Positions 45,144 through 63,087 of a stretch of 64,000 bases of DNA are shown one piece after another. Below the pieces are notes generated by a model. That model was not told the origin of the DNA, made no database searches, and saw nothing but the letters and a program-made list of their open reading frames with translations. The DNA lies in the NCBI GenBank assembly GCA_964640195.1, contig CAZXIC010000005.1, positions 4,996-68,995 of the forward strand, read 5' to 3'. The DNA is from an uncultured archaeon (GTDB taxonomy: Archaea > Iainarchaeota > Iainarchaeia > Iainarchaeales > GCA-2688035). A program made the position numbers and the translations under genes. Each line of letters starts with the position of its first letter. The stretch's first letter is position 1.

Positions 45144-46448
45144 TTGAAGGTAACTCTGCTGAATGTTCGCTCTGAGAAAAATTACTGCATGAACAAGGAT
45201 GTCATGGGCAGCATGGGCAGCGTTACGCACATCGGCAAGGGACTAAGGGCAAAGGCGATTGAGTGGGGCAAGAAGCGTGGCGTGAGGCTGCCTGTCTTCT
45301 CGTTTGGTTATCTTGCAGCGATTTTTTCTGATGCAGGGCATGAAGTGCAGGTTTTGGAGAATGCTGTGCCAAAGGAAAGTGATTTGGTCATAATAGCAAG
45401 CTCGATTGTTGACGTCAGGGCGGAAACAGCCTTTGCGGAAAGGGTTAAAAGGGAAACAAACGCAACTGTTGGATTCATCGGTGCGTTTGCCTCAGCCAAG
45501 CCTGAGATTTTCCTCAGAAGGGCAGATTTCGTTATAATGGGCGAGCCTGAGAATGCGGCGAAAAAAATCGCTACCGGGACAAAACCAAAAGGCGTTATCA
45601 AGAGCAAGCCTGTCCAGAAGCTTGAGGAACTGCCATTCCCGAAATGGCAATTGTTTCCGGTAGAGGAATACAGCTATTTCCCGCAGCTGCGGAAAAAGCC
45701 CTTCCTGCCCATCCTCTCAAGCAGGGGCTGTAGTTTCAGCTGCACCTACTGCCCCTACAGGGCATTCTACGGCGGCTGGAGGCGGAGGCAGCCAAGGAAC
45801 GTTCTTGCTGAGATAGATTACCTTGTGCAGAATTTCGGCGTACGCTCAATTCTTTTCCGCGACCCGCTGTTCAGCCTGGACAGGAAGAGGGTGCTGCAGA
45901 TAGCAGAAGGCATCAAGGAAAGGAAACTTGGATTGGAGTGGGCTTGCGAGACAAGGCTTGAGTTCTTGGACAAGCAACTTGTTGACGGGATGCACGAGGC
46001 AGGCTTCAGGGCATTGAATGTCGGCATTGAATCGCAAAGTGGCAGGGTGCTGCACGGCGTAAAGAGGAAATCGCCGGGAAGAAGCCAGGGGGAGAAGATT
46101 ATTGAGTACTGCAACAGGAAAGGCATCAGGGTCGCGGCATTCTACGTCCTGGGGCTGCCTGATGACACAGAGGAAACAATCAAAGCGACTGTTGAGTACG
46201 CGAAGAAACTGGACACGAACGTCGCGCAGTTCACCCTGTGCACGCCCTTTCCCGGAACAAAGCTTTATGAGCAGCTGAAGCCGAGGGTTTTTGAGCGGGA
46301 CTGGGAAAAGTTTGACTCATTCACGCCAGTGTTCAGGCACGATAATTTTTCAAAGGAGAGGCTGGAGCAGCTGAAGGAAGAAGCGTTTGCCTCCTATTAC
46401 TTCAGGCCAAGGTATTTGCTGAAATTCCTTCTAAGAATGTTTGGGTGA
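45144..46448 (+). CDS. B12-binding-domain radical SAM enzyme (~434 aa)
   Basis: The N-terminal Rossmann-like region ('DLVIIASSIVD', 'VGFIGAFAS') precedes the radical SAM motif 'LSSRGCSFSCTYCPY' (CxxxCxxC). The start is uncertain (TTG 45144, or ATG 45039 as in the ORF track). Confidence 0.8.
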   Translation: MKVTLLNVRSEKNYCMNKDVMGSMGSVTHIGKGLRAKAIEWGKKRGVRLPVFSFGYLAAIFSDAGHEVQVLENAVPKESDLVIIASSIVDVRAETAFAERVKRETNATVGFIGAFASAKPEIFLRRADFVIMGEPENAAKKIATGTKPKGVIKSKPVQKLEELPFPKWQLFPVEEYSYFPQLRKKPFLPILSSRGCSFSCTYCPYRAFYGGWRRRQPRNVLAEIDYLVQNFGVRSILFRDPLFSLDRKRVLQIAEGIKERKLGLEWACETRLEFLDKQLVDGMHEAGFRALNVGIESQSGRVLHGVKRKSPGRSQGEKIIEYCNRKGIRVAAFYVLGLPDDTEETIKATVEYAKKLDTNVAQFTLCTPFPGTKLYEQLKPRVFERDWEKFDSFTPVFRHDNFSKERLEQLKEEAFASYYFRPRYLLKFLLRMFG

Positions 46449-46456
46449 CATGGAAA

Positions 46457-47311
46457 ATGGATTTGGTTACGGGCGCAACTGGCTTCATCGGCTTGAACCT
46501 TGCGGAAGAGCTCAGCAAAAGGGGAAAAGTGAGGTGCCTTGCAAGGGAAAGCAGCAAGGGTCTAGGGCAACTGCGGAAGCTCAATGCTGAAATAGTTTTC
46601 GGCAGCCTTGAGGACAGGCAGAGCCTTGACAGGGCAACGAAGGGCGTTGCAACCGTGTTCCATCTCGCTGCTTCGCTCAATTCTCGGAATGCACTCGAAC
46701 TGCAGAGGGTTAATGTTGAAGGGGCAAGGAATTTGGCGGAAGCGTGCAGAAGGAATGGTGTCAAGAGAATCGTTTTCCTGAGCACCTACCTTGCCTCAGA
46801 GCAGTATAGCAGCGTTTACGGGAAAACAAAGAGGGAAGCTGAAAAGAGGGTGCGGAAAAGCGGGATTCCCTTCGTGATTGTAAGAGCCTCCGTTGTTTAC
46901 GGCAAGCATGACAGGAGAAATCTCGCAAAAATAATAAGTGCAGTGAGGAGAATGCCGGTTATCCCAGTTATTGGCGGGATAAAAATGCAGCCTGTTTTTA
47001 TCCTTGACCTTGTGAAGGCGCTGCTTGCGTGCGCAGCTGAGAAGAAAGCCCTGGGCAACGTATATAACATTGCGGGAGACAGGGTTTACTCTTTCAGGGA
47101 AATCGTTTCACTGATTGAGGAAGCAGTTGGGGTGAGGAGGATAAAGGTTCCATTGCCTTTCTGGATTGCAAAGCTGCTGTTCAGGCCTGCAGCGCGCCTG
47201 GAAGACATGGCGAGGTTTTCAGTTATTGACTGCAGCAGGGCAAAAAAAGACCTTGGATTCAGGGCAACGCCCTTTGCCCTGGGGATAAAGTCAACGCTTG
47301 AATGCCAGTGA
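46457..47311 (+). CDS. NAD-dependent epimerase/dehydratase (extended SDR)
   Basis: 'MDLVTGATGFIGLNLAEEL' glycine-rich motif and 'YGKTK' (YxxxK). Confidence 0.85.
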   Translation: MDLVTGATGFIGLNLAEELSKRGKVRCLARESSKGLGQLRKLNAEIVFGSLEDRQSLDRATKGVATVFHLAASLNSRNALELQRVNVEGARNLAEACRRNGVKRIVFLSTYLASEQYSSVYGKTKREAEKRVRKSGIPFVIVRASVVYGKHDRRNLAKIISAVRRMPVIPVIGGIKMQPVFILDLVKALLACAAEKKALGNVYNIAGDRVYSFREIVSLIEEAVGVRRIKVPLPFWIAKLLFRPAARLEDMARFSVIDCSRAKKDLGFRATPFALGIKSTLECQ

Positions 47312-47313
47312 TT

Positions 47314-48846
47314 TCATTCGTGCTCTGTTGCCGTTGAGCCGGTCAGCATTGTCCTGGTGCCTGTGTACAGCCTGTACATAGCGTATTCCACCGGAAAGCG
47401 GAAGAACCTGTGGCGCCAGCGCCACAGGGAAGTCCTGTGGAATATTTTCTGCAGGAACCTGAACCGCTTTATGTGCCTCTCCAGATAGCCGTCTCTTGCA
47501 TAGGGAAAGTAAAAGTCGTTCAACTGCTTGCGCAGCCCCAGTATCTTCTTCGGAATCCACGGCGCGGTCTTTATTCTGCTCCATTCCTCCAGCTTTTTCG
47601 GCTGCGGGAAACCCAGCTTGCAGGCAAGGTCGTACAGCGGGTTTCCAGGATAGGGGATGTAGCAGTACAGCCTTATTTCATCGTAGTCCTTTTTGCTGGC
47701 ATAGCACCTGTCAAGCAAATCAAACATTGAGTGCACCTGCTCGTCCAGAAAGCCGTTTATCTGTTCCTGCGAGGCGTTGCTGAATTTCTCTGTGGGCAGT
47801 CCGAGTATGAGCGCTGGCAGCACTTTTATCTTGAAGCGCCTTGCCCTCTCAATGAACTGCACCGATTCTCCAACTGTAAGGTTCTTGTTGATGAAGTCAA
47901 GGATTTCCTGGCTGCCCGTCTCTGCTCCAAACTGCACGTCGGTGCAGCCCGATTCGCGTATCAGCCGCCAGGTTTCGTCTGAGAAGGCAAGCATCTGCCT
48001 TGCCCTGCCCTGGGCCCTGCCCCATTTCAGCGGCAGGTTTTTCCTGATAAGCTTCTTGCAGAAGTCCTGCACCTTTTTCTCGTTGATGAAGAAGTTGTCA
48101 TCGCCGACCATCATGTACTCGATGTTGTGCTTTTCCACAAGAAATTGCCAGTCCTTCAGGATCCTGTCGTTGGAAAGGGCTGACCAGCGCTGCCTGAAGA
48201 CAAGCGGCTCTGCGCAGAACTTGCATGTGAAGGGGCAGCCTTGGCTGGTGATGTAGAACATTGAGCGCTTGCCGTCAACGTATTCAACGTGGTCTTCCAC
48301 ATTGACAAGCCCATAAGGCAAAGGCGGGAAATTGTTTATGTCCTCAAACGGCCTGTCATTATTGTGGATTATTTTTCCACTCTTGTCCTTGTAGGATGTG
48401 CCAAGCAGGCCTTTAAGGGATTGCCCTGCTGCAAGCCTTTCAACAAGCTCTTTGAAAGTCCTCTCCCCCTGAGCCCTTACTATTATGTCAACGTATTCGC
48501 TTTCCAGTGTCTGCTGCGGCAGGATTGAGGCGTGCCAGCCGCCCCACACAATCGGCACACCTGGGTTGGTTTTCCTTATCTCCTTCACTGCCTCAATCGC
48601 TGCAAGGATGTCATGCCCGGTCATGACGCTTAAGCAAACGCAGAGCGCATTTGCTGATTCGGCTGCAACCTGCTCCACGAAATCAACATCAGGCCTTGAA
48701 GTAACTATCTTCGGCTCAAAGCGTTTCCTGTCAAGCATTGAGGCAAGCTTAAGCAGCGGAATCGGCAGGCTTGTGCTGAATGTGTGCCTCCTGGGCTTGG
48801 GCAGAAACAGGACTACCTTGTGCTTTGCTTTGGGCATTGTAAACAA
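47314..48846 (-). CDS. B12-binding-domain radical SAM enzyme (510 aa), paralogue of 61561-63087
   Basis: 'IVWGGWHASILPQQTL', 'IIVRAQGERTFKELVERLAAGQSLKGL' and the radical SAM motif 'ITSQGCPFTCKFCAEP'. By eye, roughly half or more of positions are identical to the 508-aa protein at 61561-63087. Confidence 0.85.
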   Translation of the reverse strand: MFTMPKAKHKVVLFLPKPRRHTFSTSLPIPLLKLASMLDRKRFEPKIVTSRPDVDFVEQVAAESANALCVCLSVMTGHDILAAIEAVKEIRKTNPGVPIVWGGWHASILPQQTLESEYVDIIVRAQGERTFKELVERLAAGQSLKGLLGTSYKDKSGKIIHNNDRPFEDINNFPPLPYGLVNVEDHVEYVDGKRSMFYITSQGCPFTCKFCAEPLVFRQRWSALSNDRILKDWQFLVEKHNIEYMMVGDDNFFINEKKVQDFCKKLIRKNLPLKWGRAQGRARQMLAFSDETWRLIRESGCTDVQFGAETGSQEILDFINKNLTVGESVQFIERARRFKIKVLPALILGLPTEKFSNASQEQINGFLDEQVHSMFDLLDRCYASKKDYDEIRLYCYIPYPGNPLYDLACKLGFPQPKKLEEWSRIKTAPWIPKKILGLRKQLNDFYFPYARDGYLERHIKRFRFLQKIFHRTSLWRWRHRFFRFPVEYAMYRLYTGTRTMLTGSTATEHE

Positions 48847-48890: not shown

Positions 48891-49538
48891 TTATTTGAAT
48901 ATTTTGCCTGTTTCCCTGCTCCAGAAAAGAAGGTCAAGCTCTGCAAGCGGGATGCCTGCGCGCTTGCTGAATGAACGCATTTTTTCCTCAACCGCAAGGT
49001 ATTTCCTTGGGCTGAGGCTTTGGGGCATTTCCCTGATTGCACCGTAACGCAGCAGGTTGCGCAGTATGTGCCTGTCAAGGATTGCGACATCGGAGCCAAA
49101 GCCGATGTTGCGCAGAAAATGGGATGCCTCTTTCATCCCGATGCCTTTGACGTTGGCAGCCAGCCAGCCCCTTGCAGCTTTCTGGTTCCTGTCAATGCCG
49201 AGGCCCAGCAGCTTTTGCTTGATGCCTGGCATCATGAGATTGTGGGCTGCAACTATGTAGGATGCCTTGTTCCTGTGGAACCTGGCCTTTTTTGCAATAA
49301 TTCTGGCAATCTCTGTCTTGTCCCCCTTGTCCAAAACGCGTTTTGCAATCATTTCGTTCACAGCTGCGTCGCACTGCAGTGCATTGCTCTGCGGGGTGCA
49401 TAGGCAGAATGCAAGCTCGGCAAAAACTGCCTCGCTGCCCTTCTCCCAGGTCCTGCTGAATTCCCCAAGCCTTTTGCGTATCTCGCGCCTCTTTTCCTTG
49501 TGTTCCCGACGCAGTTGCCCTAGTTTTTTGCCAGGCAT
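48891..49538 (-). CDS. ogg: 8-oxoguanine DNA glycosylase/AP lyase (Ogg2-type, HhH-GPD)
   Basis: 'FAELAFCLCTPQSNA' and the HhH 'VKGIGMKEASHFLRNIGFGSDVAILDRHILR' (Lys/Asp catalytic pair context). Confidence 0.8.
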   Translation of the reverse strand: MPGKKLGQLRREHKEKRREIRKRLGEFSRTWEKGSEAVFAELAFCLCTPQSNALQCDAAVNEMIAKRVLDKGDKTEIARIIAKKARFHRNKASYIVAAHNLMMPGIKQKLLGLGIDRNQKAARGWLAANVKGIGMKEASHFLRNIGFGSDVAILDRHILRNLLRYGAIREMPQSLSPRKYLAVEEKMRSFSKRAGIPLAELDLLFWSRETGKIFK

Positions 49539-49636: not shown

Positions 49637-51733
49637 ATGGATTTATCCAATATATTTGAGAGGGCTAAGAGAGCAGACAAGAAACAGCTTTTTCTGCTTG
49701 CAGTGATTTTTCTGCTAGCCTTTGGAACAAGGGGGCATTTGCTGGTCTACGAATACATGTTCGGCTTTGACTCATACTACCACGCGAGAATGACTGGGTT
49801 CCTGCTGCAGAACGGTTACGTGCCTGCACATGACATGATGTCCTATTATTTCATGGGGGGCGCGCCGCCGCCGCAGAACATTTTCTTCTGGTATTTCACT
49901 GCAGCAATCTACAAAATTGCAACCCTCGGCGCTGCCTATAACAAAGCGTTGTGGATTCAGTTTGTAAAGGTTCTGCCTGCCCTGTTCGGCGCGCTAATCA
50001 GCGTTGCAATGTTCTTCTTCGGGAAGGAGGTGTACGGCAAAAAGGCAGGCTATGCAATGGCATTCATTGCAGCTGTTGTGCCCTCTTTCGTTTACAGAAC
50101 TCTAGGTGGCTTCTTTGAAGAGGACTGCCTTGGCTTCCTCTGGCTGCTTATTGGCTTAGTGTTCTTCGTTAGGGCTGTCAAGGACCCTGTCTTCAACAGG
50201 AAGGGCATCCAGAACGCTGTACTAGCAGGCTTTTTCTTCGGGGTGATGGCTCTGACCTGGGAGATGTTTCTGCTCATCCCGCTTGTGCTGAGCGGCTACC
50301 TGGTTTTTGCGTTAATGCACATCTACAGCAAGAGAGGCACACAGCAATTCCTTGACTTCATAAAGCTGTTTGCCATTTCCTTTGCGATTTTCGCAGGCCT
50401 AGCTACAATGAATTACGGGCTTGGCTGGGTTAACAGTGCAGCAAACTATGCCTTGGCGTCAATTCCCGGAAACCTGGAAATATTTGCTTTTGCTGGGGCA
50501 GTGCTGCTTGCAGCAGTTCTTGTTTACTTGGGGTATGAGATGCGCAATCCTGCAAAGCACGACAGCAATGCAAAGACAATCAACCTGATTTCAATGGTTC
50601 TGCTTTACTGCGTTCTCCTTGCGCTTGTAATAACCTTCCTGTCAATTGACAGCCTCTTCGTTGAAACCAGCGTTTTGGGGCAGAGTGTAGGGGAAGAGAA
50701 CACAGGCAAGCAGTTTTTTGGAATAAAGTACAACGCCTTAATCATTTTCCCAGCTCTTGCAATGCTCTTAATCCCAATCAGGATGTACAGGGAGAAAAAC
50801 GAGCATTTAAGCGCAATGATTTTCTTTTGGATTCTGATAACTTATTTCATGGCGTGGTACAAGCTGAAGTTCACTTACACTTTTGGACTGCCCATAGCAG
50901 CGGCGGTTGGCGTTGTTACAACCGAGCTGTTCTATTACACGAAAGGCAGAAGCGGCCTTGAAGTGAAAAGCGTTGCACTTGCCCTGGGCTTCATGCTGTT
51001 GACTGGCGTTGCTGCTGCAACGATTTTTGTTCCCGACAAGATTCCACACATAGAAACCCACAACCCGACGTGGAAAAAAACCCTGCAGTGGATGCAGGAG
51101 CCGGAAAACATTCCACCTGATGCGAAGATGTTCAACTGGTGGGACGAAGGGCACTGGATCAGCTTTATCGGCGAGAGGGCGGTGCTTGTTGACAACAGGA
51201 ACCTCAGCTGGGAGGGCGACAGCGATTTCGCAAGATTCATCCTAACAAAAGACTTGGGTGAAGCGGTTGAAATAATCAAGAACTATGACAGCGACTACAT
51301 TGTCCTAAGCAACGACATGTTTTTGAAAGTTGGCTCCTTCGGCTACTACGCCTACAACACGACAAACAGCAGCGACCCCCGAATCATCAATTTCCTTTTT
51401 ATGCCGCACTATGCCATTCCCTGCGGCAGAACAACAGAACAGGGCGTTGTCTACTACCAGTGCGGCGGCAACAGGTGGAGCGAGGCTGAAATGAACAGCC
51501 TTCCCACTAACTGGCAGAGCCAGGCTTTGGGCGTAACAGAGCAGAGCGTGCCGTACTTTGTTTACAGGGACAGTGACAACATGAACGTTTACTTCCTAAA
51601 CATTGCCACCAATGAGAGCATGCTGGCAAAGCTGTGGTTTAACCAAACAGAGGCAGCGCAGTACTTTGAGGAAGTGTATGGCAGCGAGGGCATGAAGATA
51701 ATCAAAGTAAAGAAAGAGCAGCTGGCGGCGTAG
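49637..51733 (+). CDS. aglB: Oligosaccharyltransferase AglB (STT3 family)
   Basis: Polytopic N-terminal domain with 'FGFDSYYHARM' (first-loop acidic motif) and the catalytic 'NWWDEGHWISF' (WWDxG). 698 aa. Confidence 0.9.
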   Translation: MDLSNIFERAKRADKKQLFLLAVIFLLAFGTRGHLLVYEYMFGFDSYYHARMTGFLLQNGYVPAHDMMSYYFMGGAPPPQNIFFWYFTAAIYKIATLGAAYNKALWIQFVKVLPALFGALISVAMFFFGKEVYGKKAGYAMAFIAAVVPSFVYRTLGGFFEEDCLGFLWLLIGLVFFVRAVKDPVFNRKGIQNAVLAGFFFGVMALTWEMFLLIPLVLSGYLVFALMHIYSKRGTQQFLDFIKLFAISFAIFAGLATMNYGLGWVNSAANYALASIPGNLEIFAFAGAVLLAAVLVYLGYEMRNPAKHDSNAKTINLISMVLLYCVLLALVITFLSIDSLFVETSVLGQSVGEENTGKQFFGIKYNALIIFPALAMLLIPIRMYREKNEHLSAMIFFWILITYFMAWYKLKFTYTFGLPIAAAVGVVTTELFYYTKGRSGLEVKSVALALGFMLLTGVAAATIFVPDKIPHIETHNPTWKKTLQWMQEPENIPPDAKMFNWWDEGHWISFIGERAVLVDNRNLSWEGDSDFARFILTKDLGEAVEIIKNYDSDYIVLSNDMFLKVGSFGYYAYNTTNSSDPRIINFLFMPHYAIPCGRTTEQGVVYYQCGGNRWSEAEMNSLPTNWQSQALGVTEQSVPYFVYRDSDNMNVYFLNIATNESMLAKLWFNQTEAAQYFEEVYGSEGMKIIKVKKEQLAA

Positions 51734-51778: not shown

Positions 51779-52039
51779 TTAACTGAAATATTCATACTTT
51801 ATTTTTAGAAACAGGATTGAGAGGGCAAGTATCAAACCGACGGTATTCATTGCGGCTACGGGCCCGTTTTGGATTAGGACTGCATACGTTATCCAAAGAA
51901 CTAAACCGATTGTATAGATAATGTATCTCCAAAAGGACAAATCTTTTGTGGACTTTGTTCTCCAGCTTTTTATTGTCTGCGGAAGCAATGAGATTACAAC
52001 AAAAATGCCTGCGGCGTACCCTAAAATATCAATCCACAT
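51779..52039 (-). CDS. SemiSWEET / PQ-loop (MtN3-like) three-helix membrane protein
   Basis: 86 aa from ATG 52039: 'ILGYAAGIFVVISLLPQTIKSWRTKSTKDLSFWRYIIYTIGLVLWITYAVL'. Shows the PQ motif and 3 TM helices. Confidence 0.75.
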   Translation of the reverse strand: MWIDILGYAAGIFVVISLLPQTIKSWRTKSTKDLSFWRYIIYTIGLVLWITYAVLIQNGPVAAMNTVGLILALSILFLKIKYEYFS

Positions 52040-57296: not shown

Positions 57297-58424
57297 GCTT
57301 TTGTAAATTTGCTCGAATTTTTCTGCAGCTGCCTCAATTGAGTAAAGCTTTTCTGCCCTGTGCCTTGCCTTTTTCCCGAGACTCTTGCGCAGCTCAGGGC
57401 TTTCAATCAGCTTTATCAGCGCAGTTGCAATGCTCTTCTCCTCCTTTTGCCTTGCAAGCAATGCTGCATCAGCAACGGTTGGCTTAACCTCGCCTGATTC
57501 GGTTGCAACAACCGCCTTGCCTGCAGCCATGCTCTCCATCAATGCAATTGATGTCGTTGCCTTGAATGCAAAGCTGTGCGCAACAATCTCGGCTGCAGCA
57601 TACACTCTTGGCATTTCGCTGTTTGGCATTTCTCCCATAAAAAAAACACTTTTCCCAAGCCCAAGCTCTCTTGCGAGCTTTTCAAGCATTCCCCTGCTCT
57701 GGCCGTCTCCAACTATCGCGTACTTCCACCCTGGATGCTTTCTTGCAACCACTGCCATTGCCCTTATCACATAGGAAATGCCCTCTGCGTTTGTCTTGTG
57801 CAGCGGCTTTGCGCTCACAATCAAATTTTTGCCAAGCCTTGCAAGCGCTGGATGCGGCTTGCTTTTGCCATGGAACTTTTTCACATCAACCGCACCAGGG
57901 ACAACGGAAATTTTTTTCTTTGGAATGCCCCAGGGTAGGAAAAATTTTTCCACAACAAACCTGCTCCAGCTCACAATCATGTCGTAATTCAGCTTTGGCA
58001 GCAAGAACTTGTTTATTGCAAAAACGAGTTTGAGGTTCAGGCTGACCGCCTGGTCGCTGAGGTATTCCACTGCAACAACCAGGGGCTTGCCTGTGAACAA
58101 CTTGACAAAATGCCCGATAAGGCCAGGGAATGCATCGTTCTGCGCGTGAATCACGTCCGGCTTGAATTTCCTGGCTTTTAAAACTGCGACTGGCCAGACC
58201 TTTGCATACTCGAACTTGTGCAGCGCGTGGTGCCCAAAAACAGGGCAGTGGTAAACCTGCAAGCCGAGTTTTTTCTCTTGTGCAGAAAACTGCTTTCCGC
58301 CGGGCGTGAAAACAAAAATTTTGTGACCCCTCCGCAGCATCTCATGCAGGAAGCTGCTCACGAACTGCTCTCCGCCGCCAGGGCTGCCGAGCGCATAGGT
58401 ATGGGTAATGAAAAATATTCTCAT
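57288..58424 (-). CDS. GT4-family (GT-B fold) glycosyltransferase
   Basis: 'MRIFFITHTYALGSPGGGEQFV' and a C-terminal 'E..........E'-type region 'ALMESMAAGKAVVATESGE'. Confidence 0.85.
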   Translation of the reverse strand: MRIFFITHTYALGSPGGGEQFVSSFLHEMLRRGHKIFVFTPGGKQFSAQEKKLGLQVYHCPVFGHHALHKFEYAKVWPVAVLKARKFKPDVIHAQNDAFPGLIGHFVKLFTGKPLVVAVEYLSDQAVSLNLKLVFAINKFLLPKLNYDMIVSWSRFVVEKFFLPWGIPKKKISVVPGAVDVKKFHGKSKPHPALARLGKNLIVSAKPLHKTNAEGISYVIRAMAVVARKHPGWKYAIVGDGQSRGMLEKLARELGLGKSVFFMGEMPNSEMPRVYAAAEIVAHSFAFKATTSIALMESMAAGKAVVATESGEVKPTVADAALLARQKEEKSIATALIKLIESPELRKSLGKKARHRAEKLYSIEAAAEKFEQIYKSLK

Positions 58425-58548: not shown

Positions 58549-59601
58549 ATGGGTTATTACATCTCGCAGGCAAAGAGGAGCCTGCAGCGCTTTGTGTTCA
58601 CGCCCTACCTCGGGCTTACAAAGCTTTTGAACGCTGCAGCCCTGTTCCTGCAGTTCGGGCTGTTCAAAAACAGCAGGGTTTTTGGCTATCCCCTGAAGCT
58701 GTCCTTGGACCCTACTTCAATTTGCCAGCTGCACTGCCCATTGTGCCCGACTGGCCAGGGCAGCAGGGGCAGGAGCAGGGGCATAATGAAATTTGCGGAA
58801 TTCAAAAAAGTTGTTGACGAAATGGCACCTTACCTTTATGAAATTGACCTGAACAACTGGGGAGAACCCTTTCTCAACAAGGAACTGGCAAAGATGGTTG
58901 GGCATGCGCATGGTAAAAAGATAAGGACAAGCGTTAACACAAACCTGAACGTTGCCTTGAGTGAAAAGGATGCTGCAGGAATTGTTAAGGCAGGGCTTGA
59001 CGTGCTCTACGTTTCAATGGATGGGGTAATACAAAAAACTTATGAGAGGTACAGGAAGGGCGGAAAGCTGAAAATTGTCTGGGACAACATCAGGCTGGTT
59101 GTGGATAAGAAAAGGCAGCTGGGAAAGCGGAATCCGAAGATTGTCTGGCAGTTTTTGGTCAGCAAATTCAACGAGCATGAACTGCCACGACTGGAGCAGG
59201 TGCGGAAAGACTTGGGCATTGACCAAGTGATTATAGGCCTGCTGCGGAGCGACATGGCCAAAGAGATTTTCACTCCGGACAGGGAGAAAATTGAAAGCGT
59301 GAGGAAATGGCTCCCAAAAAACGAGCAGCTGAGCAGGTACGATTACAAGCTAAAAAAGCGCAAGCTGCAGAAACGCTACTGCCACTTCCCCTGGTTTGTG
59401 AGTGTAATAAACTGGAACGGCAGCGTGAGCCCCTGCTGCGCAAGCTACAATGAAAAGCTTGACTTCGGGAACGCGTTTACAGATGGGTTTAAAGCAGTTT
59501 GGAACAACCAAAAATACCGAGCAGCGAGGAAAGCCGTTGCATCACGCAAAGCAACGGGAACAGTGTGCGACAACTGCCTCAAAACAGGCTTTATTGACTG
59601 A
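58549..59601 (+). CDS. Radical SAM enzyme with C-terminal SPASM/twitch-like Cys cluster
   Basis: 'PTSICQLHCPLCPTG' (CxxxCxxC) and the C-terminal 'CHFPW...NGSVSPCC...CDNC' motifs. Confidence 0.8.
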   Translation: MGYYISQAKRSLQRFVFTPYLGLTKLLNAAALFLQFGLFKNSRVFGYPLKLSLDPTSICQLHCPLCPTGQGSRGRSRGIMKFAEFKKVVDEMAPYLYEIDLNNWGEPFLNKELAKMVGHAHGKKIRTSVNTNLNVALSEKDAAGIVKAGLDVLYVSMDGVIQKTYERYRKGGKLKIVWDNIRLVVDKKRQLGKRNPKIVWQFLVSKFNEHELPRLEQVRKDLGIDQVIIGLLRSDMAKEIFTPDREKIESVRKWLPKNEQLSRYDYKLKKRKLQKRYCHFPWFVSVINWNGSVSPCCASYNEKLDFGNAFTDGFKAVWNNQKYRAARKAVASRKATGTVCDNCLKTGFID

Positions 59602-59613: not shown

Positions 59614-60621
59614 ATGGAAAGTGTTCTGGTAACAGGCGGGGCTGGCTTCATCGGCTCGCACGTTGTAAACGAGCTGAGGAAGAGAAAAAAGCAGGTAAAA
59701 GTGCTGGACAATTTGGTCGGCGGCGAGCAGAACCTGCGCTATTTCGGCAAAGGGGTTGAGTTCATCAGGGGAGACTGCTGCAACAGGCAGCAGTGCAAAA
59801 AAGCCTTGCAAGGGGTTGACACTGTTTTCCATCTGGCAGCGCACGCGGCAGAAGGGCAGAGCGTCTTCATCCCGGTTTTCAACGCAAACACTAACCTGCT
59901 TGGCTCTCTCACTGTGCTGAGCGAGGCGATAAACCAGGGCATTGAAAACTTTGTGTTCACCTCAAGCATCGCTGTTTACGGCAGGCAGAGGAAAATGCCG
60001 ATTAAGGAGAGCGCGCCTTTGCTGCCGGATGACCCTTACGCTGTGACAAAGAAGGCTTTTGAGGACTATCTGCGCGTTTACCACGAGCTGACAGGCATAA
60101 AGCCGTACATTGTCAGGTTTTTCAACGTTTACGGCCCGAGGCAGAGGATGGACGACCCCTACAGGGGTGTCGTTCCAATCACCATCAACAAGTTCCTGAA
60201 AGGCGAAGCGCCGGTAATTTTCGGCGACGGGCTACAGAAGCGGGCTTTCACTTACATAAGTGACGTGGTTGAGCCAATCTGCGACATTGTCGGAAAAAAT
60301 CAGCTTGTCAACAATCCAATAAACATCGGGAGCGAAGAGGTCCACACAGTGAGGGAGCTTGCGGAAATGGTCAAGGAAAAGATGCGGGCAGCTCAGGAAG
60401 TGCAGTTCGTTGACAGGCGGAGCAGCGACGTAAAGATTGCCTACTGCGATACGGGCAAGGCCAGAAAGCTGCTTGGCTACAGTGCAAAGGTTTCGCTCAG
60501 CGAAGGCTTGGACAGGACGATTGAGTGGGCAAAGGCTGAAGGGCCAAAAGAATTCAGGTACTTTGACTACACTGAGATAGGGAAGCTCACGCACAAAACA
60601 TATACAAAGAAAAAAATCTGA
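59614..60621 (+). CDS. NAD-dependent sugar-nucleotide epimerase/dehydratase (extended SDR)
   Basis: 'VLVTGGAGFIGSHVVNEL' and 'YAVTK'. Confidence 0.88.
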   Translation: MESVLVTGGAGFIGSHVVNELRKRKKQVKVLDNLVGGEQNLRYFGKGVEFIRGDCCNRQQCKKALQGVDTVFHLAAHAAEGQSVFIPVFNANTNLLGSLTVLSEAINQGIENFVFTSSIAVYGRQRKMPIKESAPLLPDDPYAVTKKAFEDYLRVYHELTGIKPYIVRFFNVYGPRQRMDDPYRGVVPITINKFLKGEAPVIFGDGLQKRAFTYISDVVEPICDIVGKNQLVNNPINIGSEEVHTVRELAEMVKEKMRAAQEVQFVDRRSSDVKIAYCDTGKARKLLGYSAKVSLSEGLDRTIEWAKAEGPKEFRYFDYTEIGKLTHKTYTKKKI

Positions 60622-60673: not shown

Positions 60674-61564
60674 ATGCAGGGCTCTTTTCCGAATGCAAGC
60701 GTTGTAATCGCGACATACAACAACGCAAAAGTGCTGCGCAAGGTTCTTTCAGCAATGCTGCGACTGGATTACCCCGCAGAATATGAAATCATTGTAGTTG
60801 ACGACGGAAGCAGCGACGGGACAGCAGAGATGCTCCACAGGGAATTCGGGAAAGAGAAGGCAGTGAAGATTATCGCCTTCAAGCGCAACCAGGGCGTCTG
60901 CAGGGCAAGGAACGCAGGGATTAAGGCTGCGCGCTATCCGATTGTAGTGAACATGGACCACGACTGCATTCCTGAGAAGAGATGGTTGCGTGAGATTGTG
61001 AAGGGCTTTGATTCAGAAAAGATTGGTGTGGTAAGCAGCTTCGGCGATTATGGGGGAACGTCAACGGCTTTCAGGAAAGAGCTTCTTGACAGGGTAGGCG
61101 GTTATGACGAAAGATACCGCTACTACAGGGAGGACACAGACCTTACTTTCAGCATCATGGACCTTGGCTATAAGTACAGGCGCCTGCGGAAGCAGTTCTA
61201 CTTCCATGACCACAGGGAGATAAAGCCGAAGGGCGCTGCGCAAATGCTGCGCTACTTGTTCAGGCGATTGTCTTATCATATGAACGACGCGCTGCTTTTC
61301 AAGAAGCACGGGAGGCTTGCAGCAAAGTTCCTGGATGTCAGGCTCGGCTTCCTTGTAAACCCGAGGAAAGACTTTGCTGTCGTAACAGGCACATGGATGA
61401 AACCTTACAAGCTTGTTTTCAGCTCCCCAAGGGGAATGCGACTCATTGAGAATAAGAGCCCATTGCACGCTACCGCAATCATTATGCTTGGCATTGCATA
61501 CGTTTTCGCTGTGAAGTTCAACAGGCTGCTGGGCAGCATAAAATTCAAGACATTCCTGCTTTAA
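60674..61564 (+). CDS. GT2-family glycosyltransferase
   Basis: 'ASVVIATYNNAKVL', 'IVVDDGSSDGT', 'NMDHDC' and 'YREDTDL'. Confidence 0.88.
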   Translation: MQGSFPNASVVIATYNNAKVLRKVLSAMLRLDYPAEYEIIVVDDGSSDGTAEMLHREFGKEKAVKIIAFKRNQGVCRARNAGIKAARYPIVVNMDHDCIPEKRWLREIVKGFDSEKIGVVSSFGDYGGTSTAFRKELLDRVGGYDERYRYYREDTDLTFSIMDLGYKYRRLRKQFYFHDHREIKPKGAAQMLRYLFRRLSYHMNDALLFKKHGRLAAKFLDVRLGFLVNPRKDFAVVTGTWMKPYKLVFSSPRGMRLIENKSPLHATAIIMLGIAYVFAVKFNRLLGSIKFKTFLL

Positions 61565-63087
61565 TGCTGCTGCTTCCTCAGCCTGTCCCTGATTCCCTTG
61601 AAGAACCTCAGCGCCTTGTGCTCTATCGGGAAAGCATAGAACCTGTGCTTCCACCTGAACAATGCTGTCCTGTGGAAAAGCATGTGCACCAGCTTGAAGC
61701 GCTTTGTGTGCCTGAGCAAGTACTTGTCGCAGGCGTAGGGAAAAATGAATTCCATCAAATGCTGTACTCTTCCATACATCTTTGCAGGATACCAGGGCAG
61801 GTTCTGCTGCACGATGTCAAAGTTTGACCATTCCTCAAGGCGCTTCGGCGGCCTGAAGCCGAGAGCCTTGCTTTTCTCAAAAAGCGGGTTTCCTGGATAG
61901 GGGGTGTAGATGAAAAGCAGGATTTCAAAGTAGTCCTTTGTCGGATAGCATTTGTCAAGCAGGTCAAGTATTGCATCCAGTTCCTTTTCAGCAATGCGCA
62001 TTTTTTCTTTCTCTTTTTTTGCATTCTTGTAGGCATCGAACGGCAGCCCAACCATGAGCGAGGGCGTAATCTCAATATTGTACCTCCTCGCCAGCTCAAT
62101 CAGGCGCTGGGTGTCCTCAACAGTAACCATCTTGTTAATCAAATCCAGGCCTTCCTGCAGGCCTGATTCCGCTCCAACAAGGAGGTCTTTGCAGCCACTT
62201 TTCTTCATCAGCCGCCATGTTTCTTCAGGCAGATCCGCCAGCTGCTTTGTCCTGCCGTTCACCCTGCCCCAGTGAATACGCAGCTTTCTCTTTAATATCT
62301 CCCGCGATATCTCCTTTACCCTGTTCTTGTCAACGAAAAAGTTCTCGTCGATTATGAGAAATAGCTCAACGCCGTACCTTTTTGCAAGCGCCTCAATCTC
62401 CGTTCCCACTCTCTTTGACTTCAAGCCGAACCACCTTCTCCTGTAAACAAGGGGGTCGGCGCAGAAGGCGCAGTTGAATGGGCACCCCTGGCTTGACATA
62501 TAGGAAAGGGCGCGCATTCCGTCAAGCTCAACTATGAAGTCCTCAACGTTTATCAGGTCAAATGGCATCCTTGGAAAGTTGTTTATGTCCTCAAAATCCC
62601 TTGGCTCGTTTTTCACTATTTTCCCGTCTCTGTCCTTGAAGTATATTCCTGGCAATCCGTGCAGCGACTTTCCGGCAGCAAGCCTTTCAACCAGCTCTTT
62701 CATTGTCCTCTCGCCCTGCCCTATCACAACAATGTCAGCATATTCGCTCTGCAGCGTCTGTTCAGGGAGAATCGAAGCGTGCCATCCGCCCCACACTATG
62801 GGCAAGCCAGGCCTTTTCCTCTTAACCTCCTTTATAGCATCTATCGCGCTTTTTATCTGGTAGCCTGTGAGGCTGCTTACAGCAAAGCACACCGCACCAT
62901 CAAGGTGTTTCTTGACCCTCTCAATGTAATCGTATTTCGGCGTGGTAGCGAAAATCTTGACGTCAAAGCGCTTCCTGTCAATAAGCGAGGAAACGCCCAA
63001 GAGGGTTAGCGGAGCCCCGGGGCTTATGTTTCCCGGGCCTGGCTGGGGCAGCAGCATCACCACTTTCTTTTTTTCCTGTCCCTGCAT
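61561..63087 (-). CDS. B12-binding-domain radical SAM enzyme (508 aa), paralogue of 47314-48846
   Basis: 'IVWGGWHASILPEQTL', 'VVIGQGERTMKELVERLAAGKSLHGL' and 'MSSQGCPFNCAFCADP'. Confidence 0.85.
   Translation of the reverse strand: MQGQEKKKVVMLLPQPGPGNISPGAPLTLLGVSSLIDRKRFDVKIFATTPKYDYIERVKKHLDGAVCFAVSSLTGYQIKSAIDAIKEVKRKRPGLPIVWGGWHASILPEQTLQSEYADIVVIGQGERTMKELVERLAAGKSLHGLPGIYFKDRDGKIVKNEPRDFEDINNFPRMPFDLINVEDFIVELDGMRALSYMSSQGCPFNCAFCADPLVYRRRWFGLKSKRVGTEIEALAKRYGVELFLIIDENFFVDKNRVKEISREILKRKLRIHWGRVNGRTKQLADLPEETWRLMKKSGCKDLLVGAESGLQEGLDLINKMVTVEDTQRLIELARRYNIEITPSLMVGLPFDAYKNAKKEKEKMRIAEKELDAILDLLDKCYPTKDYFEILLFIYTPYPGNPLFEKSKALGFRPPKRLEEWSNFDIVQQNLPWYPAKMYGRVQHLMEFIFPYACDKYLLRHTKRFKLVHMLFHRTALFRWKHRFYAFPIEHKALRFFKGIRDRLRKQQH

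What the first reader, a model, noticed from the sequence alone, without database searches (positions are those of the whole stretch)
45144..63087. N-glycosylation super-locus interleaved with four radical SAM enzymes (three B12-binding, one SPASM)
Gene content seen in the sequence, within ~18 kb:
- Three cobalamin-binding-domain radical SAM genes: 45144-46448, plus the paralogue pair 47314-48846 and 61561-63087.
- One SPASM-type radical SAM gene (58549-59601).
- Three SDR sugar-nucleotide epimerase/dehydratases.
- Three GT2, one GT4 and one GT-C glycosyltransferase.
- AglB, AglH and an Alg14/Alg13-like pair.

The two ~510-aa paralogues are both on the minus strand, each convergent with a plus-strand sugar gene. 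They roughly bracket the core of the locus.

From established knowledge, B12-dependent radical SAM enzymes typically methylate or rearrange unactivated carbon centres. Examples are the GenK/Fom3/HpnP type, and archaeal GDGT ring synthases are also B12-domain radical SAM proteins.

By inference, the glycan (or its dolichol/lipid carrier) receives radical-mediated modifications not described for archaeal N-glycans. Dependence on cobalamin would also be notable in a reduced genome.
Basis: partly seen in the sequence, partly recalled or inferred. Interest (0 to 1): 0.7.

Follow-up and report, generated by a model that had tools for sequence, protein, structure and literature searches.

The report
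Radical SAM enzymes in archaeal glycan locus
A small uncultivated archaeon keeps four radical SAM enzymes (five counting one just past the window) inside its protein-glycosylation gene cluster, and the same pairing recurs in many uncultivated archaea and bacteria, which points to undescribed radical chemistry on cell-surface sugars.

Summary
The gene content is real at the stated coordinates: AglB, AglH, an Alg14/Alg13-like pair, three GT2, one GT4, three SDRs and four radical SAM (rSAM) genes. Four details need correcting.
- Only the two 508/510-aa paralogues (48% identical) have a solid cobalamin-binding domain.
- The 434-aa rSAM is sub-threshold for that domain. Its model matches AprD4, a cobalamin-free sugar diol-dehydratase (TM 0.82-0.84).
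- The "SPASM" protein has only the four-cysteine, single-cluster "twitch" motif of BtrN.
- The "GT-C" is an unassigned protein with about eight predicted membrane segments.

The locus continues past the window with RmlA/RmlB, two methyltransferases and a fifth, HpnJ-like rSAM. None of the rSAMs reaches a curated family threshold.

Linkage to glycan genes is conserved in related archaea and in Omnitrophota, Patescibacteria, Elusimicrobia and Chloroflexota. One relative is fused to a glycosyltransferase. The AprD4-like gene is followed by the same type of SDR in at least 28 of 53 loci.

Best reading: these are sugar-tailoring enzymes of a lipid-linked surface glycan. The candidate reactions are deoxygenation, C-methylation and alcohol oxidation. 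The chemistry is inferred, not shown. Cobalamin supply could not be assessed.

The parts
45144..46448 (+). 434-aa radical SAM enzyme with an AprD4-like fold. The ORF could start at 45039; homologues begin at the 45144 position.
   Evidence: PF04055 65.7 bits; PF02310 22.5 bits, below the 32.1 cut-off. Best NCBIfam matches are HpnJ at 174 bits (cut-off 577.6) and AprD4 at 115 bits (cut-off 500). AF2 pLDDT 94.6. Foldseek top hit is AprD4 6fd2, TM 0.82-0.84, E 3e-28; the next hits reach TM 0.63.
46445..47311 (+). 288-aa extended SDR, the predicted reductase partner. It overlaps the rSAM stop codon by 4 nt.
   Evidence: PF01370 97.8 bits. Best NCBIfam is HpnA at 111 bits (cut-off 367). It has GATGFIG and YGKTK motifs. 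Nearest PDB entries are 3wj7, NDUFA9 and MoeE5. An SDR sits directly downstream of the rSAM in 28/53 loci; of the 29 such SDR ORFs counted, 28 are most similar to this gene.
47314..48846 (-). 510-aa cobalamin-domain (class B type) radical SAM enzyme, paralogue 1.
   Evidence: PF02310 51.9 bits and PF04055 58.3 bits. 48% identical to paralogue 2. Separate orthologues exist in L001 and L002.
48891..49538 (-). 8-oxoguanine DNA glycosylase. Probably unrelated, although it also neighbours AglB in L014.
   Evidence: PF22175 180 bits; L014 gene order.
49637..51733 (+). AglB/STT3 oligosaccharyltransferase.
   Evidence: PF02516 67.9 bits and PF22627. WWDEG at residue 501. TIGR04154 at 103 bits, below the 450 cut-off.
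51779..52087 (-). 102-aa PQ-loop / SemiSWEET-type membrane protein.
   Evidence: PF04193 42.8 bits and PF03083 39.7 bits.
52207..53262 (+). AglH-type polyprenyl-phosphate HexNAc-1-phosphate transferase.
   Evidence: PF00953 105.9 bits; about eight membrane-like segments.
53259..53735 (+). Alg14-like / PssD-family subunit of a split glycosyltransferase.
   Evidence: PF08660 69.6 bits. NF041549 142 bits, above the 110 cut-off.
53736..54227 (+). Alg13-like / PssE-family catalytic subunit.
   Evidence: PF04101 61.3 bits. NF041548 134 bits, above the 120 cut-off.
54224..54913 (+). 229-aa GT2 of the polyprenyl-phosphate-sugar synthase type.
   Evidence: PF00535 114 bits. Best NCBIfam matches are AglJ at 137 bits, dolichyl-phosphate hexose transferase, PpgS and ArnC, all below their cut-offs.
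54984..56420 (-). 478-aa polytopic membrane protein.
   Evidence: No Pfam match even at E<0.5. About eight membrane-like segments. Weak NCBIfam hits, E about 5e-7, to LA_3751/3752 putative glycosyltransferase and a glycopolymer-formation protein.
56436..57296 (+). GT2 glycosyltransferase.
   Evidence: PF00535 95.3 bits.
57288..58424 (-). GT4 (GT-B fold) glycosyltransferase.
   Evidence: PF00534 98.4 bits and PF13439 61.9 bits.
58549..59601 (+). 350-aa radical SAM enzyme with a BtrN-type twitch domain (single auxiliary cluster).
   Evidence: PF13186 54.6 bits and PF04055 37.9 bits. C278/C296/C340/C343 are invariant in 30 homologues and align to the four BtrN cysteines. The family profile hits BtrN at E 1.5e-18.
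59614..60621 (+). 335-aa SDR of the GalE / LegB / 4,6-dehydratase type.
   Evidence: PF01370 178.9 bits. LegB 164 bits, GalE 159 bits and RmlB 152 bits, all below their cut-offs.
60674..61564 (+). GT2 glycosyltransferase.
   Evidence: PF00535 110.7 bits.
61561..63087 (-). 508-aa cobalamin-domain (class B type) radical SAM enzyme, paralogue 2.
   Evidence: PF02310 49.7 bits and PF04055 63.1 bits. AF2 pLDDT 93.9. Foldseek top hits are the cobalamin-bound TsrM and OxsB, then MgmA, TokK and CysS, all TM about 0.6.
63169..64000 (+). Third SDR, 4,6-dehydratase-like, cut by the window end. The full gene is 316 aa in L092.
   Evidence: Translation. L092 gene table. CDP-glucose and dTDP-glucose 4,6-dehydratase models at about 155 bits, below their cut-offs.

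Best explanation
This is a compact, chromosomal surface-glycan assembly locus, AglB-dependent and so most likely N-glycosylation. The host is an uncultivated DPANN archaeon; the nearest named relatives are Candidatus Diapherotrites / Iainarchaeum. The rSAM enzymes are conserved sugar-tailoring steps in that pathway.

Shown:
- Gene identities, conserved linkage to glycan genes, fold assignments and cysteine motifs.

Inferred:
1. AglH and the Alg14/Alg13-like pair start a lipid-linked oligosaccharide. GT2 and GT4 enzymes extend it, and AglB transfers it to protein.
2. The 229-aa GT2 makes a polyprenyl-phosphate sugar. The neighbouring polytopic membrane protein may use that sugar on the outer face of the membrane.
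3. The 434-aa AprD4-fold rSAM and its translationally coupled SDR act as a pair, like AprD4/AprD3. The rSAM would carry out a radical 1,2-diol dehydration of a sugar to a keto-deoxy intermediate. The SDR would then reduce it with NAD(P)H, giving net deoxygenation. My probability for this specific chemistry is about 0.35.
4. The two old cobalamin-domain paralogues each modify a different unactivated sugar carbon, most likely by C-methylation as GenK or MoeK5 do. My probability is about 0.35.
5. The BtrN-like twitch rSAM oxidises a sugar hydroxyl to a ketone without NAD. The adjacent SDR could then re-reduce it, giving epimerisation. My probability is about 0.3.
6. Just beyond the window, an RmlA/RmlB 6-deoxyhexose branch with two class I methyltransferases and an HpnJ-like rSAM supplies a further modified sugar.
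For: Gene map.

Conserved synteny of the paralogues, twitch rSAM and HpnJ-like rSAM:
- L002 has AglB-AglH-Alg14-Alg13-GT2 with separate orthologues of both paralogues (67% and 60% identity) and of the HpnJ-like rSAM (62%).
- L008 has AglB-AglH-Alg14-Alg13 followed by several twitch/SPASM rSAMs (one 61% identical), GTs and the HpnJ-like rSAM (61%).
- L001 has four B12-domain rSAMs plus one more rSAM among GT2, GT4, SDR and nucleotidyltransferase genes.
- Bacterial and other archaeal loci show the same mix with flippase or Wzy genes (L003, L004, L005, L007, L009, L011).

AprD4-like family in GTDB species genomes:
- 30 of 36 long non-acidobacterial loci hold at least 2 glycan genes.
- An SDR lies directly downstream in 28/53 loci; of the 29 such SDR ORFs counted, 28 are most similar to the window's SDR.
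- These are lower bounds from single-sequence phmmer.

Paralogue family in metagenomes:
- Of 39 long loci, 32 hold at least 2 rSAM genes, 28 hold a class I methyltransferase and at least 21 hold 2 or more glycan genes.

Other evidence:
- P0035 fuses a methyltransferase, a GT1-family glycosyltransferase domain and a B12-rSAM in one protein.
- The AprD4 fold match has TM 0.82-0.84.
- AprD4/AprD3 perform a radical dehydration plus NADPH reduction on a sugar (PMC5461906).
- The BtrN twitch cysteines are invariant.
- The paralogues match cobalamin-bound rSAM structures.
- RmlB passes its NCBIfam cut-off (448 bits against 365), and the fifth rSAM scores 422 bits full-length on HpnJ.
Against: - No rSAM here reaches any curated family threshold, so all chemistry is by analogy.
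- Sequence identity to AprD4 is only about 21%. I could not check its substrate-contacting residues.
- The closest curated model for the 434-aa protein is HpnJ (ring contraction), not AprD4.
- The rSAM-SDR pair lies 7 kb from the Dol-P-sugar-type GT2 and membrane-protein pair in this genome.
- The window contains no flippase, no aminotransferase and no cobalamin gene.
- The synteny counts lack a matched random-locus control.
- Whether the substrate is a nucleotide sugar, a lipid-linked sugar or a finished glycan is unknown.
Confidence: 0.65

Rival explanations
1. The rSAM enzymes modify a lipid rather than the glycan. The target could be the dolichol carrier or a membrane glycolipid head group, as with HpnJ on hopanoid glucosamine, Cds on glycosyl-GDGT, or GrsA/B on GDGT chains.
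For: - HpnJ is the best curated match for two of the rSAMs: 174 bits for the 434-aa protein and 422 bits for the fifth rSAM.
- The partner SDR resembles HpnA, OleD, sterol-type SDRs and NDUFA9, not nucleotide-sugar enzymes.
- LPG_synthase_TM proteins neighbour some loci; I recall the hopanoid protein HpnL as belonging to that family.
- HpnJ and Cds act on sugars already attached to lipids (PMC13459092, PMC9092360).
Against: - No hopanoid or isoprenoid-lipid gene is in the window or in the related loci inspected.
- The same families occur in bacteria and archaea with different membrane lipids.
- All HpnJ scores fall below the 577.6 cut-off.
- The only similarity to Tes (7tol) is generic rSAM-core similarity of the twitch enzyme.
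- GrsA/B could not be compared directly.
- A lipid-LINKED sugar substrate is compatible with the main explanation, so this rival overlaps it in part.
Confidence: 0.12
2. The rSAM enzymes act on protein or peptide. They could modify the surface glycoprotein itself or a small ribosomal peptide, and they sit next to glycosylation genes because they share the same protein substrate.
For: - SPASM/twitch rSAMs are often peptide maturases. The twitch family's core also resembles SuiB, CteB and SkfB.
- The paralogues score about 115 bits on the RiPP enzyme ApyD and about 50-62 bits on RiPP C-methyltransferases.
- Two predicted secreted proteins lie just upstream, at 38553-44305.
Against: - Those scores are generic and far below the cut-offs (750 and 282).
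- No short precursor gene, leader-binding domain or peptide-export gene was seen.
- The consistent neighbours across phyla are GT2, GT4, SDR and nucleotidyltransferase genes.
- The fusion partner in P0035 is a glycosyltransferase.
- The best solved relative of the twitch enzyme is the sugar/cyclitol dehydrogenase BtrN.
Confidence: 0.08
3. The rSAM genes belong to a small-molecule pathway for an aminoglycoside- or cyclitol-like pseudo-oligosaccharide, and that pathway merely borders the agl genes.
For: The nearest characterised analogues all come from aminoglycoside pathways. They are AprD4 (apramycin), BtrN (butirosin) and, by class, GenK-type B12 methylases (PMC9204698).
Against: - No 2-deoxy-scyllo-inosose synthase, aminotransferase or resistance gene is in the window.
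- The rSAM genes are interleaved with AglB, AglH and the GTs, not set beside them.
- Related loci carry Wzx/Wzy-type flippase and polymerase genes.
Confidence: 0.05
4. The co-location is coincidental. The rSAM genes have unrelated housekeeping roles and happen to lie in a variable surface-gene region.
For: An unrelated DNA-repair gene (Ogg) also sits inside the cluster.
Against: Linkage is conserved across archaeal and bacterial phyla at 35-70% identity. There is also a gene fusion and 4-nt translational coupling of the rSAM with its SDR.
Confidence: 0.04

Closest known systems
AprD4/AprD3: a radical SAM 1,2-diol dehydratase with an NADPH-dependent reductase, performing C3'-deoxygenation of paromamine in apramycin biosynthesis.
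   Same: - The full-length fold of the 434-aa protein matches AprD4 (TM 0.82-0.84).
- AprD4 is also the best PDB sequence hit (E 1.8e-27).
- Both are two-gene systems of an rSAM plus a dedicated reductase-type partner, and both would act on a sugar ring.
- AprD4 has an N-terminal Rossmann-like domain that does not bind cobalamin. The window protein's B12-domain score is sub-threshold, which fits that picture.
   Different: - Identity is only about 21%.
- The protein scores 115 bits against the 500-bit cut-off of the AprD4 equivalog model.
- The context is a surface-glycan locus of an archaeon, not an actinomycete antibiotic cluster.
- The substrate is unknown.
- I could not establish whether AprD3 belongs to the same SDR subfamily as the partner here.
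HpnJ (with HpnI, HpnK and HpnA): the hopanoid side-chain glucosamine-to-cyclitol ring-contraction rSAM. Archaeal calditol synthase Cds is the analogous enzyme.
   Same: - HpnJ is the best curated match for the 434-aa protein (174 bits) and especially for the fifth rSAM just beyond the window (422 bits, full length).
- The partner SDR's best curated match is HpnA.
- HpnJ acts on a sugar attached to a lipid.
   Different: - Both scores are below the 577.6-bit equivalog cut-off.
- No shc, hpnI, hpnK or other hopanoid gene is present, and the host is an archaeon.
- HpnJ itself has never been characterised biochemically.
- Cds could not be compared because no sequence was available.
BtrN: the radical SAM 2-deoxy-scyllo-inosamine dehydrogenase of butirosin biosynthesis and the founding 'twitch' enzyme.
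   Same: - The four auxiliary-cluster cysteines have the same spacing (C278/C296/C340/C343 against 169/187/232/235) and are invariant in the family.
- BtrN is the best solved relative of the family profile, with both the core and the twitch domain matched (E 1.5e-18).
   Different: - The window protein is 80 residues longer. It has a hydrophobic N-terminal stretch and a longer core.
- Similarity in the core is low.
- The best curated hit is a tungsten-cofactor maturase model at 121 bits against a 380-bit cut-off.
- The context is glycan genes, not aminocyclitol genes.
Class B (cobalamin-dependent) radical SAM enzymes that act on sugars or nucleotide-linked substrates: GenK, GenD1, Fms7, MoeK5 and Fom3. 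Solved members of the class include TsrM, TokK, OxsB, MgmA/QCMT and CysS.
   Same: - The paralogues have an N-terminal B12-binding Rossmann domain above the Pfam cut-off, followed by a CX3CX2C rSAM core.
- The best structural matches are cobalamin-bound TsrM and OxsB, then MgmA and TokK.
- Sugar C-methylation by this class is established in antibiotic pathways.
   Different: - TM is only about 0.6 and identity about 18-20% to any solved member.
- No curated family is matched; the best scores are BchE, ApyD and HpnJ at about 115-121 bits.
- The family has its own conserved Trp/Arg-rich helical C-terminal region.
- The context is N-glycosylation.
- Neither methyltransfer nor cobalamin binding is demonstrated.
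Archaeal Agl N-glycosylation pathways of Haloferax, Methanococcus and Sulfolobus.
   Same: The locus has an AglB oligosaccharyltransferase, an AglH-type initiating transferase, an AglJ-like Dol-P-sugar GT2, soluble GT2/GT4 enzymes and nucleotide-sugar SDRs clustered around aglB.
   Different: As far as I know, and as far as my library searches show, described Agl pathways tailor sugars with SAM-dependent O-methyltransferases, amidotransferases, sulfoquinovose synthase and similar enzymes, not with rSAM enzymes. This locus has four to five rSAM genes.

Membership tests
Radical SAM superfamily (all four genes) | A PF04055 match above the gathering score, and a CX3CX2C cluster motif. | tested here: met
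   PF04055 scores are 65.7, 58.3, 37.9 and 63.1 bits against a 29.5 cut-off. The motifs lie at residues 196-203, 204-211, 59-66 and 202-209.
Class B cobalamin-dependent rSAM (paralogues 47314-48846 and 61561-63087) | An N-terminal B12-binding domain (PF02310) above the gathering score. | tested here: met
   51.9 and 49.7 bits against a 32.1 cut-off.
Class B cobalamin-dependent rSAM (paralogues) | An overall fold like the solved cobalamin-bound members. | tested here: met
   AF2 pLDDT 93.9. Foldseek top hits are TsrM, OxsB, MgmA, TokK and CysS, with E 1e-19 to 1e-15 and TM about 0.6.
Class B cobalamin-dependent rSAM (paralogues) | Actual cobalamin binding and cobalamin-dependent turnover. | not testable with these tools
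   This needs purified protein. No cobalamin transport or salvage gene was seen in the 64-kb window, and the rest of the genome is not available.
Class B cobalamin-dependent rSAM (gene 45144-46448) | An N-terminal B12-binding domain (PF02310) above the gathering score. | tested here: not met
   22.5 bits against a 32.1 cut-off. Only a few of the 120 listed homologues carry PF02310. The best structural match is cobalamin-free AprD4.
AprD4-family rSAM diol-dehydratase (NF033070) | The equivalog model score cut-off of 500 bits. | tested here: not met
   114.8 bits. Relatives L012, L061 and L078 score 111-125 bits.
AprD4-family rSAM diol-dehydratase | The same full-length fold. | tested here: met
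   TM 0.82-0.84 and E 3e-28 to 6fd2. The next-best structures reach TM 0.63.
AprD4-family rSAM diol-dehydratase | A dedicated NAD(P)H-dependent reductase partner. | tested here: inconclusive
   An SDR overlaps the rSAM stop codon by 4 nt. An SDR lies directly downstream in at least 28/53 loci, and 28 of the 29 such ORFs counted are most similar to the window's SDR. Whether it works as a ketoreductase, and whether it is related to AprD3, was not established.
HpnJ (TIGR03471) | The equivalog score cut-off of 577.6 bits. | tested here: not met
   174.2 bits for the 434-aa protein, 114-120 bits for the paralogues, and 422 bits for the fifth rSAM beyond the window.
HpnJ | A hopanoid biosynthesis context (shc, hpnH, hpnI, hpnK). 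| tested here: not met
   None of these genes is in the window or in L092.
SPASM-domain rSAM (two auxiliary 4Fe-4S clusters) | A PF13186 match. | tested here: met
   54.6 bits against a 21.5 cut-off.
SPASM-domain rSAM (two auxiliary 4Fe-4S clusters) | The seven-cysteine motif needed to ligate two auxiliary clusters. | tested here: not met
   There are only five cysteines after the core: 278, 296, 297, 340 and 343. Four are invariant in the family and one is nearly invariant.
Twitch-domain rSAM (BtrN type, one auxiliary cluster) | Four cysteines with the BtrN spacing, aligned to the BtrN ligands. | tested here: met
   C278, C296, C340 and C343 align to the four cysteines of the BtrN C-terminal domain. 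I recall these as the auxiliary-cluster ligands Cys169/187/232/235. The family profile hits BtrN at E 1.5e-18.
GDGT-modifying rSAM (GrsA/GrsB, Tes/GDGT-MAS) | Specific sequence or structure similarity to these enzymes. | tested here: inconclusive
   Tes (7tol) is hit only by the twitch enzyme's generic core (E 0.0035 for the single sequence, 4e-9 for the profile). No GrsA/B sequence or model was available to compare.
Archaeal AglB-dependent N-glycosylation locus | An STT3/AglB protein with a WWDXG catalytic motif. | tested here: met
   PF02516 and PF22627. WWDEG at residue 501.
Archaeal AglB-dependent N-glycosylation locus | An initiating polyprenyl-phosphate sugar-1-phosphate transferase and extending GTs next to aglB. 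| tested here: met
   PF00953 AglH, the Alg14/Alg13 pair, three GT2 and one GT4 lie within 9 kb.
GT-C glycosyltransferase (gene 54984-56420) | A match to a GT-C family model such as PMT, PMT_2, STT3 or ArnT. | tested here: not met
   No Pfam match at E<0.5. The only support is about eight membrane-like segments and weak NCBIfam hints.

The most novel reading that the evidence does not exclude
Anaerobic, uncultivated lineages share a toolkit of at least four uncharacterised rSAM families. These lineages include DPANN archaea, Patescibacteria/CPR, Omnitrophota and Elusimicrobia. The families are AprD4-fold, HpnJ-like, a new class B clade and BtrN-type twitch. In this reading they tailor cell-surface glycans at the nucleotide- or lipid-linked stage and produce C-methylated, deoxygenated, oxidised or epimerised, or even carbocyclic sugars. 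In this archaeon those sugars would end up on N-glycans. That would be an undescribed general mode of glycan diversification.
Probability: 0.45. Interest if true: 0.8.

Novelty: new variant of a known kind. Interest (0 to 1): 0.62.

Why it matters
Radical SAM tailoring of sugars is known from antibiotic pathways (AprD4, BtrN, GenK, DesII) and from hopanoid and calditol head groups. To my knowledge, and in the library I searched, it is not known from protein N-glycosylation or from ordinary cell-surface polysaccharide assembly.

If these enzymes act as inferred, several things follow:
- The surface glycans of DPANN, CPR and Omnitrophota organisms contain sugar structures that current glycan databases and mass-spectrometry search spaces do not anticipate. 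These organisms live attached to or dependent on other cells.
- The conserved rSAM-SDR cassette would be a second, widespread example of radical deoxygenation.
- The new class B clade would add cobalamin demand to organisms with small genomes.

The families are compact and well conserved, and their models have pLDDT above 93. They are therefore directly testable by heterologous expression.

Tried and rejected
- **Curated families.** NCBIfam and Pfam scans were run on all rSAMs. Every specific model was far below its cut-off, so none can be filed as HpnJ, AprD4, BchE, HpnR, PhpK, a W-cofactor maturase or similar.
- **Acidobacterial relatives as true HpnJ.** I tested whether the relatives at 38-40% identity, including cultured Pyrinomonas methylaliphatogenes, are HpnJ that could anchor a function. 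They are not (120 bits or less), and they lack the SDR and GT context, so they form a separate subfamily.
- **Literature.** Five searches for rSAM enzymes in N-glycosylation, O-antigen or polysaccharide loci, or in DPANN, found nothing relevant in the held library. The primary AprD4/AprD3 and Cds papers are not held.
- **anSME-like role for the twitch enzyme.** Sulfatase- and phosphodiesterase-family genes occur in some related loci. I rejected this idea because no anSME model appeared among the 25 listed curated matches (of 32 found) and no sulfatase gene is in the window.
- **Taxonomy and full contig.** The exact cluster look-up returned no names. The look-up of the twitch protein's contig failed. 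The paralogue look-up returned only a 10-kb Logan contig. The organism is therefore inferred from named homologues only.
- **N-glycosylation sequons.** They are not enriched in the two upstream surface-protein candidates.
- **Family size.** The representative-library search shows the AprD4-like core family has roughly 50 representatives at 50% identity scoring above 390 bits. The counts at looser thresholds mix in general B12-type rSAMs and are not informative.

Full report
**1. What is in the sequence**

ORF listing and profile scans confirm a dense block of sugar genes from about 45.1 kb to the window end. In order they are:
- a 434-aa rSAM (45144-46448, +)
- an SDR that overlaps its stop codon by 4 nt (46445-47311, +)
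- a 510-aa rSAM with a B12-binding domain (47314-48846, -)
- an unrelated 8-oxoguanine glycosylase
- AglB/STT3 (49637-51733, +; WWDEG at residue 501)
- a 102-aa PQ-loop/SemiSWEET protein
- AglH (52207-53262)
- an Alg14-like/Alg13-like pair, which also passes the PssD/PssE cut-offs
- a 229-aa GT2 whose best curated matches are AglJ, Dol-P-hexose transferase, PpgS and ArnC
- a 478-aa membrane protein with about eight predicted membrane segments and no family match
- a GT2, then a GT4
- a 350-aa rSAM with a PF13186 domain (58549-59601, +)
- an SDR, then a GT2
- a 508-aa rSAM with a B12-binding domain (61561-63087, -)
- a third SDR that starts at 63169 and is cut by the window end

The two large rSAMs are 48% identical.

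The rest of the window is ordinary archaeal chromosome. It holds ribosomal proteins L1, L10 and L11, FtsZ, SMC, pyrimidine synthesis genes and GlmS. No cobalamin gene was seen.

The named homologues closest to the rSAMs come from Candidatus Diapherotrites / Iainarchaeum, which belong to DPANN.

**2. The locus is larger than the window shows**

A 10.3-kb public contig, L092, is identical to window 59216-64000 (4785/4785 bases). It continues about 5.5 kb further. That extension encodes:
- the full third SDR
- a true RmlB (448 bits against a 365 cut-off)
- an RmlA-like nucleotidyltransferase
- a class I methyltransferase
- a fifth rSAM of 486 aa
- a second methyltransferase
- another GT2

The fifth rSAM has a B12 domain and matches the HpnJ model end to end at 422 bits, below the 577.6 cut-off.

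**3. The four rSAM genes are four different things, not 'three B12 plus one SPASM'**

(a) The paralogues pass the Pfam B12-binding cut-off (51.9 and 49.7 bits against 32.1). Their high-confidence model (pLDDT 93.9) is most like cobalamin-bound TsrM and OxsB, then MgmA/QCMT, TokK and CysS. The match is only TM about 0.6, and no curated family is reached. They are class B-type rSAMs from an undescribed clade.

(b) The 434-aa protein scores only 22.5 bits on PF02310. Its model (pLDDT 94.6) matches AprD4 over the full length (TM 0.82-0.84, E 3e-28). Cobalamin enzymes reach only TM 0.63. AprD4 is a sugar 1,2-diol dehydratase that does not bind cobalamin, and it works with the NADPH-dependent reductase AprD3. 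By sequence profile the nearest curated model is HpnJ at 174 bits, far below its cut-off.

(c) The 'SPASM' protein has only five C-terminal cysteines. C278, C296, C340 and C343 are invariant in 30 homologues and align to the four cysteines of BtrN's C-terminal domain. I recall these as BtrN's single auxiliary-cluster ligands. The family profile hits BtrN at E 1.5e-18. It is therefore a twitch-type enzyme. BtrN is an NAD-independent dehydrogenase acting on a sugar-like alcohol.

**4.

Related archaeal loci:
- L002 has AglB-AglH-Alg14-Alg13-GT2. It also has separate orthologues of both paralogues (67% and 60% identity) and of the HpnJ-like rSAM (62%). The duplication is therefore old and both copies have been kept.
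- L008 has the same AglB core followed by several twitch/SPASM rSAMs (one 61% identical to the window's), GTs and the HpnJ-like rSAM.
- L001 carries four B12-domain rSAMs plus one more rSAM among GT2, GT4, SDR and nucleotidyltransferase genes.

More distant loci:
- Relatives in Omnitrophota, Aenigmarchaeota, Chloroflexota, a marine archaeon and a Microgenomates (CPR) bacterium lie among GT2, GT4, SDR, Wzx-type flippase, Wzy and PMT_2 genes.
- One relative, P0035, is a single protein with methyltransferase, GT1 and B12-rSAM domains.

Scan of one genome per GTDB species with the AprD4-like family (222 relatives, 80 loci kept):
- 30 of 36 long non-acidobacterial loci hold at least 2 glycan genes.
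- An SDR lies immediately downstream on the same strand in 28/53 loci. Of the 29 such SDR ORFs counted, 28 are most similar to the window's SDR.
- These are lower bounds. Detection used single-sequence phmmer with the window's own proteins, and no random-locus control was run.
- An acidobacterial subgroup at 38-40% identity lacks this context and is a different subfamily.

Metagenome scan with the paralogue family:
- Of 39 long loci, 32 have at least 2 rSAM genes and at least 21 have 2 or more glycan genes.
- 28 have a small class I methyltransferase, often directly adjacent.

**5. Most likely mechanism**

The steps below are inferred.
1. AglH and the Alg14/13-like pair start a lipid-linked oligosaccharide. 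GT2 and GT4 enzymes extend it, and AglB transfers it to protein.
2. The AglJ/ArnC-like GT2 and the adjacent polytopic membrane protein resemble the two-step 'polyprenyl-P-sugar then outside transfer' systems. The membrane protein's family is unproven.
3. The rSAM enzymes tailor individual sugars.
   - The AprD4-fold enzyme and its coupled SDR most plausibly carry out radical dehydration followed by ketoreduction, giving net deoxygenation. The SDR resembles HpnA, OleD, sterol-type SDRs and NDUFA9, not nucleotide-sugar enzymes. That hints at a lipid-linked substrate.
   - The two class B paralogues most plausibly C-methylate two different positions or residues. Another cobalamin-assisted rearrangement is possible.
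   - The twitch enzyme most plausibly oxidises a hydroxyl to a ketone for the neighbouring SDR.
   - The HpnJ-like enzyme beyond the window sits in a dTDP-6-deoxyhexose branch with two methyltransferases. It could perform a ring rearrangement or a methylation.

I put 0.65 on 'sugar/glycan tailoring' as a class. I put roughly 0.3-0.35 on each specific reaction.

**6. Rivals**
- Lipid or carrier modification (0.12). HpnJ and HpnA are the nearest curated names, and HpnJ and Cds work on lipid-attached sugars. No lipid pathway genes accompany these rSAMs, and the families cross the bacterial-archaeal lipid divide.
- Peptide or protein modification (0.08). Only generic similarity supports it, no precursor gene was seen, and the consistent neighbours are sugar genes.
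- A small-molecule aminoglycoside-like pathway (0.05). The analogues come from such pathways, but the rSAM genes are interleaved with AglB and AglH, and related loci carry Wzx/Wzy genes.
- Coincidence (0.04). Conserved synteny, gene fusion and translational coupling argue against it.

**7. Comparison with known systems, and novelty**

The enzymes resemble AprD4/AprD3, HpnJ/HpnA, BtrN and class B methylases. Every family-membership threshold I could test was failed. They are best described as new families with recognisable folds.

rSAM tailoring of sugars is established in antibiotic and lipid head-group pathways. I found no description of it in archaeal N-glycosylation or in general surface-glycan loci. 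The held library covers only open-access papers. I therefore rate this a new variant of a known kind.

It applies to at most the two paralogues and the HpnJ-like enzyme, and the genome beyond 64 kb was not available.

Noticed in passing
window 51779-52087 (-): A 102-aa PQ-loop / MtN3 (SemiSWEET-type) membrane protein sits between AglB and AglH. From my own knowledge, the eukaryotic Dol-P-sugar utilisation factor MPDU1 is a PQ-loop protein. This gene could therefore be a lipid-linked-sugar handling factor and not a sugar transporter.
   Followed up: no
L092 1-6329, which corresponds to about 64.1-69.5 kb, just past the window end: The locus continues with RmlB, a 102-aa protein, an RmlA-like gene, a class I methyltransferase, a fifth rSAM, a second methyltransferase and a GT2. 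The fifth rSAM is 486 aa, has a B12 domain and scores 422 bits full-length on HpnJ.
   Followed up: partly
L093-L172 (metagenome relatives of the paralogues): A class I methyltransferase of about 205 aa lies in 28 of 39 long loci, often directly next to the B12-rSAM gene. 32 of 39 loci carry two or more rSAM genes, and some carry five or six in a row (see also L007). The reason for the rSAM-methyltransferase pairing is unexplained.
   Followed up: partly
P0411, P0420, P0428, P0432, P0443, P0447: These are giant proteins of 1,800-2,600 aa. Each contains two to five stretches matching the AprD4-like rSAM profile, so they look like multi-rSAM fusion proteins.
   Followed up: no
L068-L091, e.g. 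L078 10001-11284 (Pyrinomonas methylaliphatogenes K22): An acidobacterial subgroup of the AprD4-like family (38-40% identity) has no adjacent SDR or glycosyltransferase genes. It reaches neither the HpnJ nor the AprD4 threshold. It includes a cultured organism that could be used for genetics.
   Followed up: partly
window 38553-43001 (+) and 43220-44305 (+): The first gene encodes a 1482-aa acidic, cysteine-rich (4.3%) protein with a signal-peptide-like N-terminus and no Pfam match. The second encodes a 361-aa protein with a signal peptide and a C-terminal membrane anchor ending in KKKK. Both are likely surface proteins directly upstream of the glycan locus. N-X-S/T sequons are not enriched in either.
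   Followed up: partly
window 34000-38000: This stretch has low G+C (0.37-0.42 against about 0.50 elsewhere). It holds a 206-aa fragment of a family B DNA polymerase exonuclease domain (34468-35088), a TBP gene (36316-36915) and an NYN-domain protein (37138-37764). It may be a foreign or degraded insertion.
   Followed up: no
window 2840-4549 (-): A 569-aa protein fuses an N-terminal HAD-family hydrolase to a CofD (2-phospho-L-lactate transferase family) domain.
   Followed up: no
window 48891-49538 (-) and L014: An 8-oxoguanine DNA glycosylase gene lies next to AglB in the window and also in the related archaeal locus L014. Its position is conserved, but it has no obvious link to glycosylation.
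   Followed up: no
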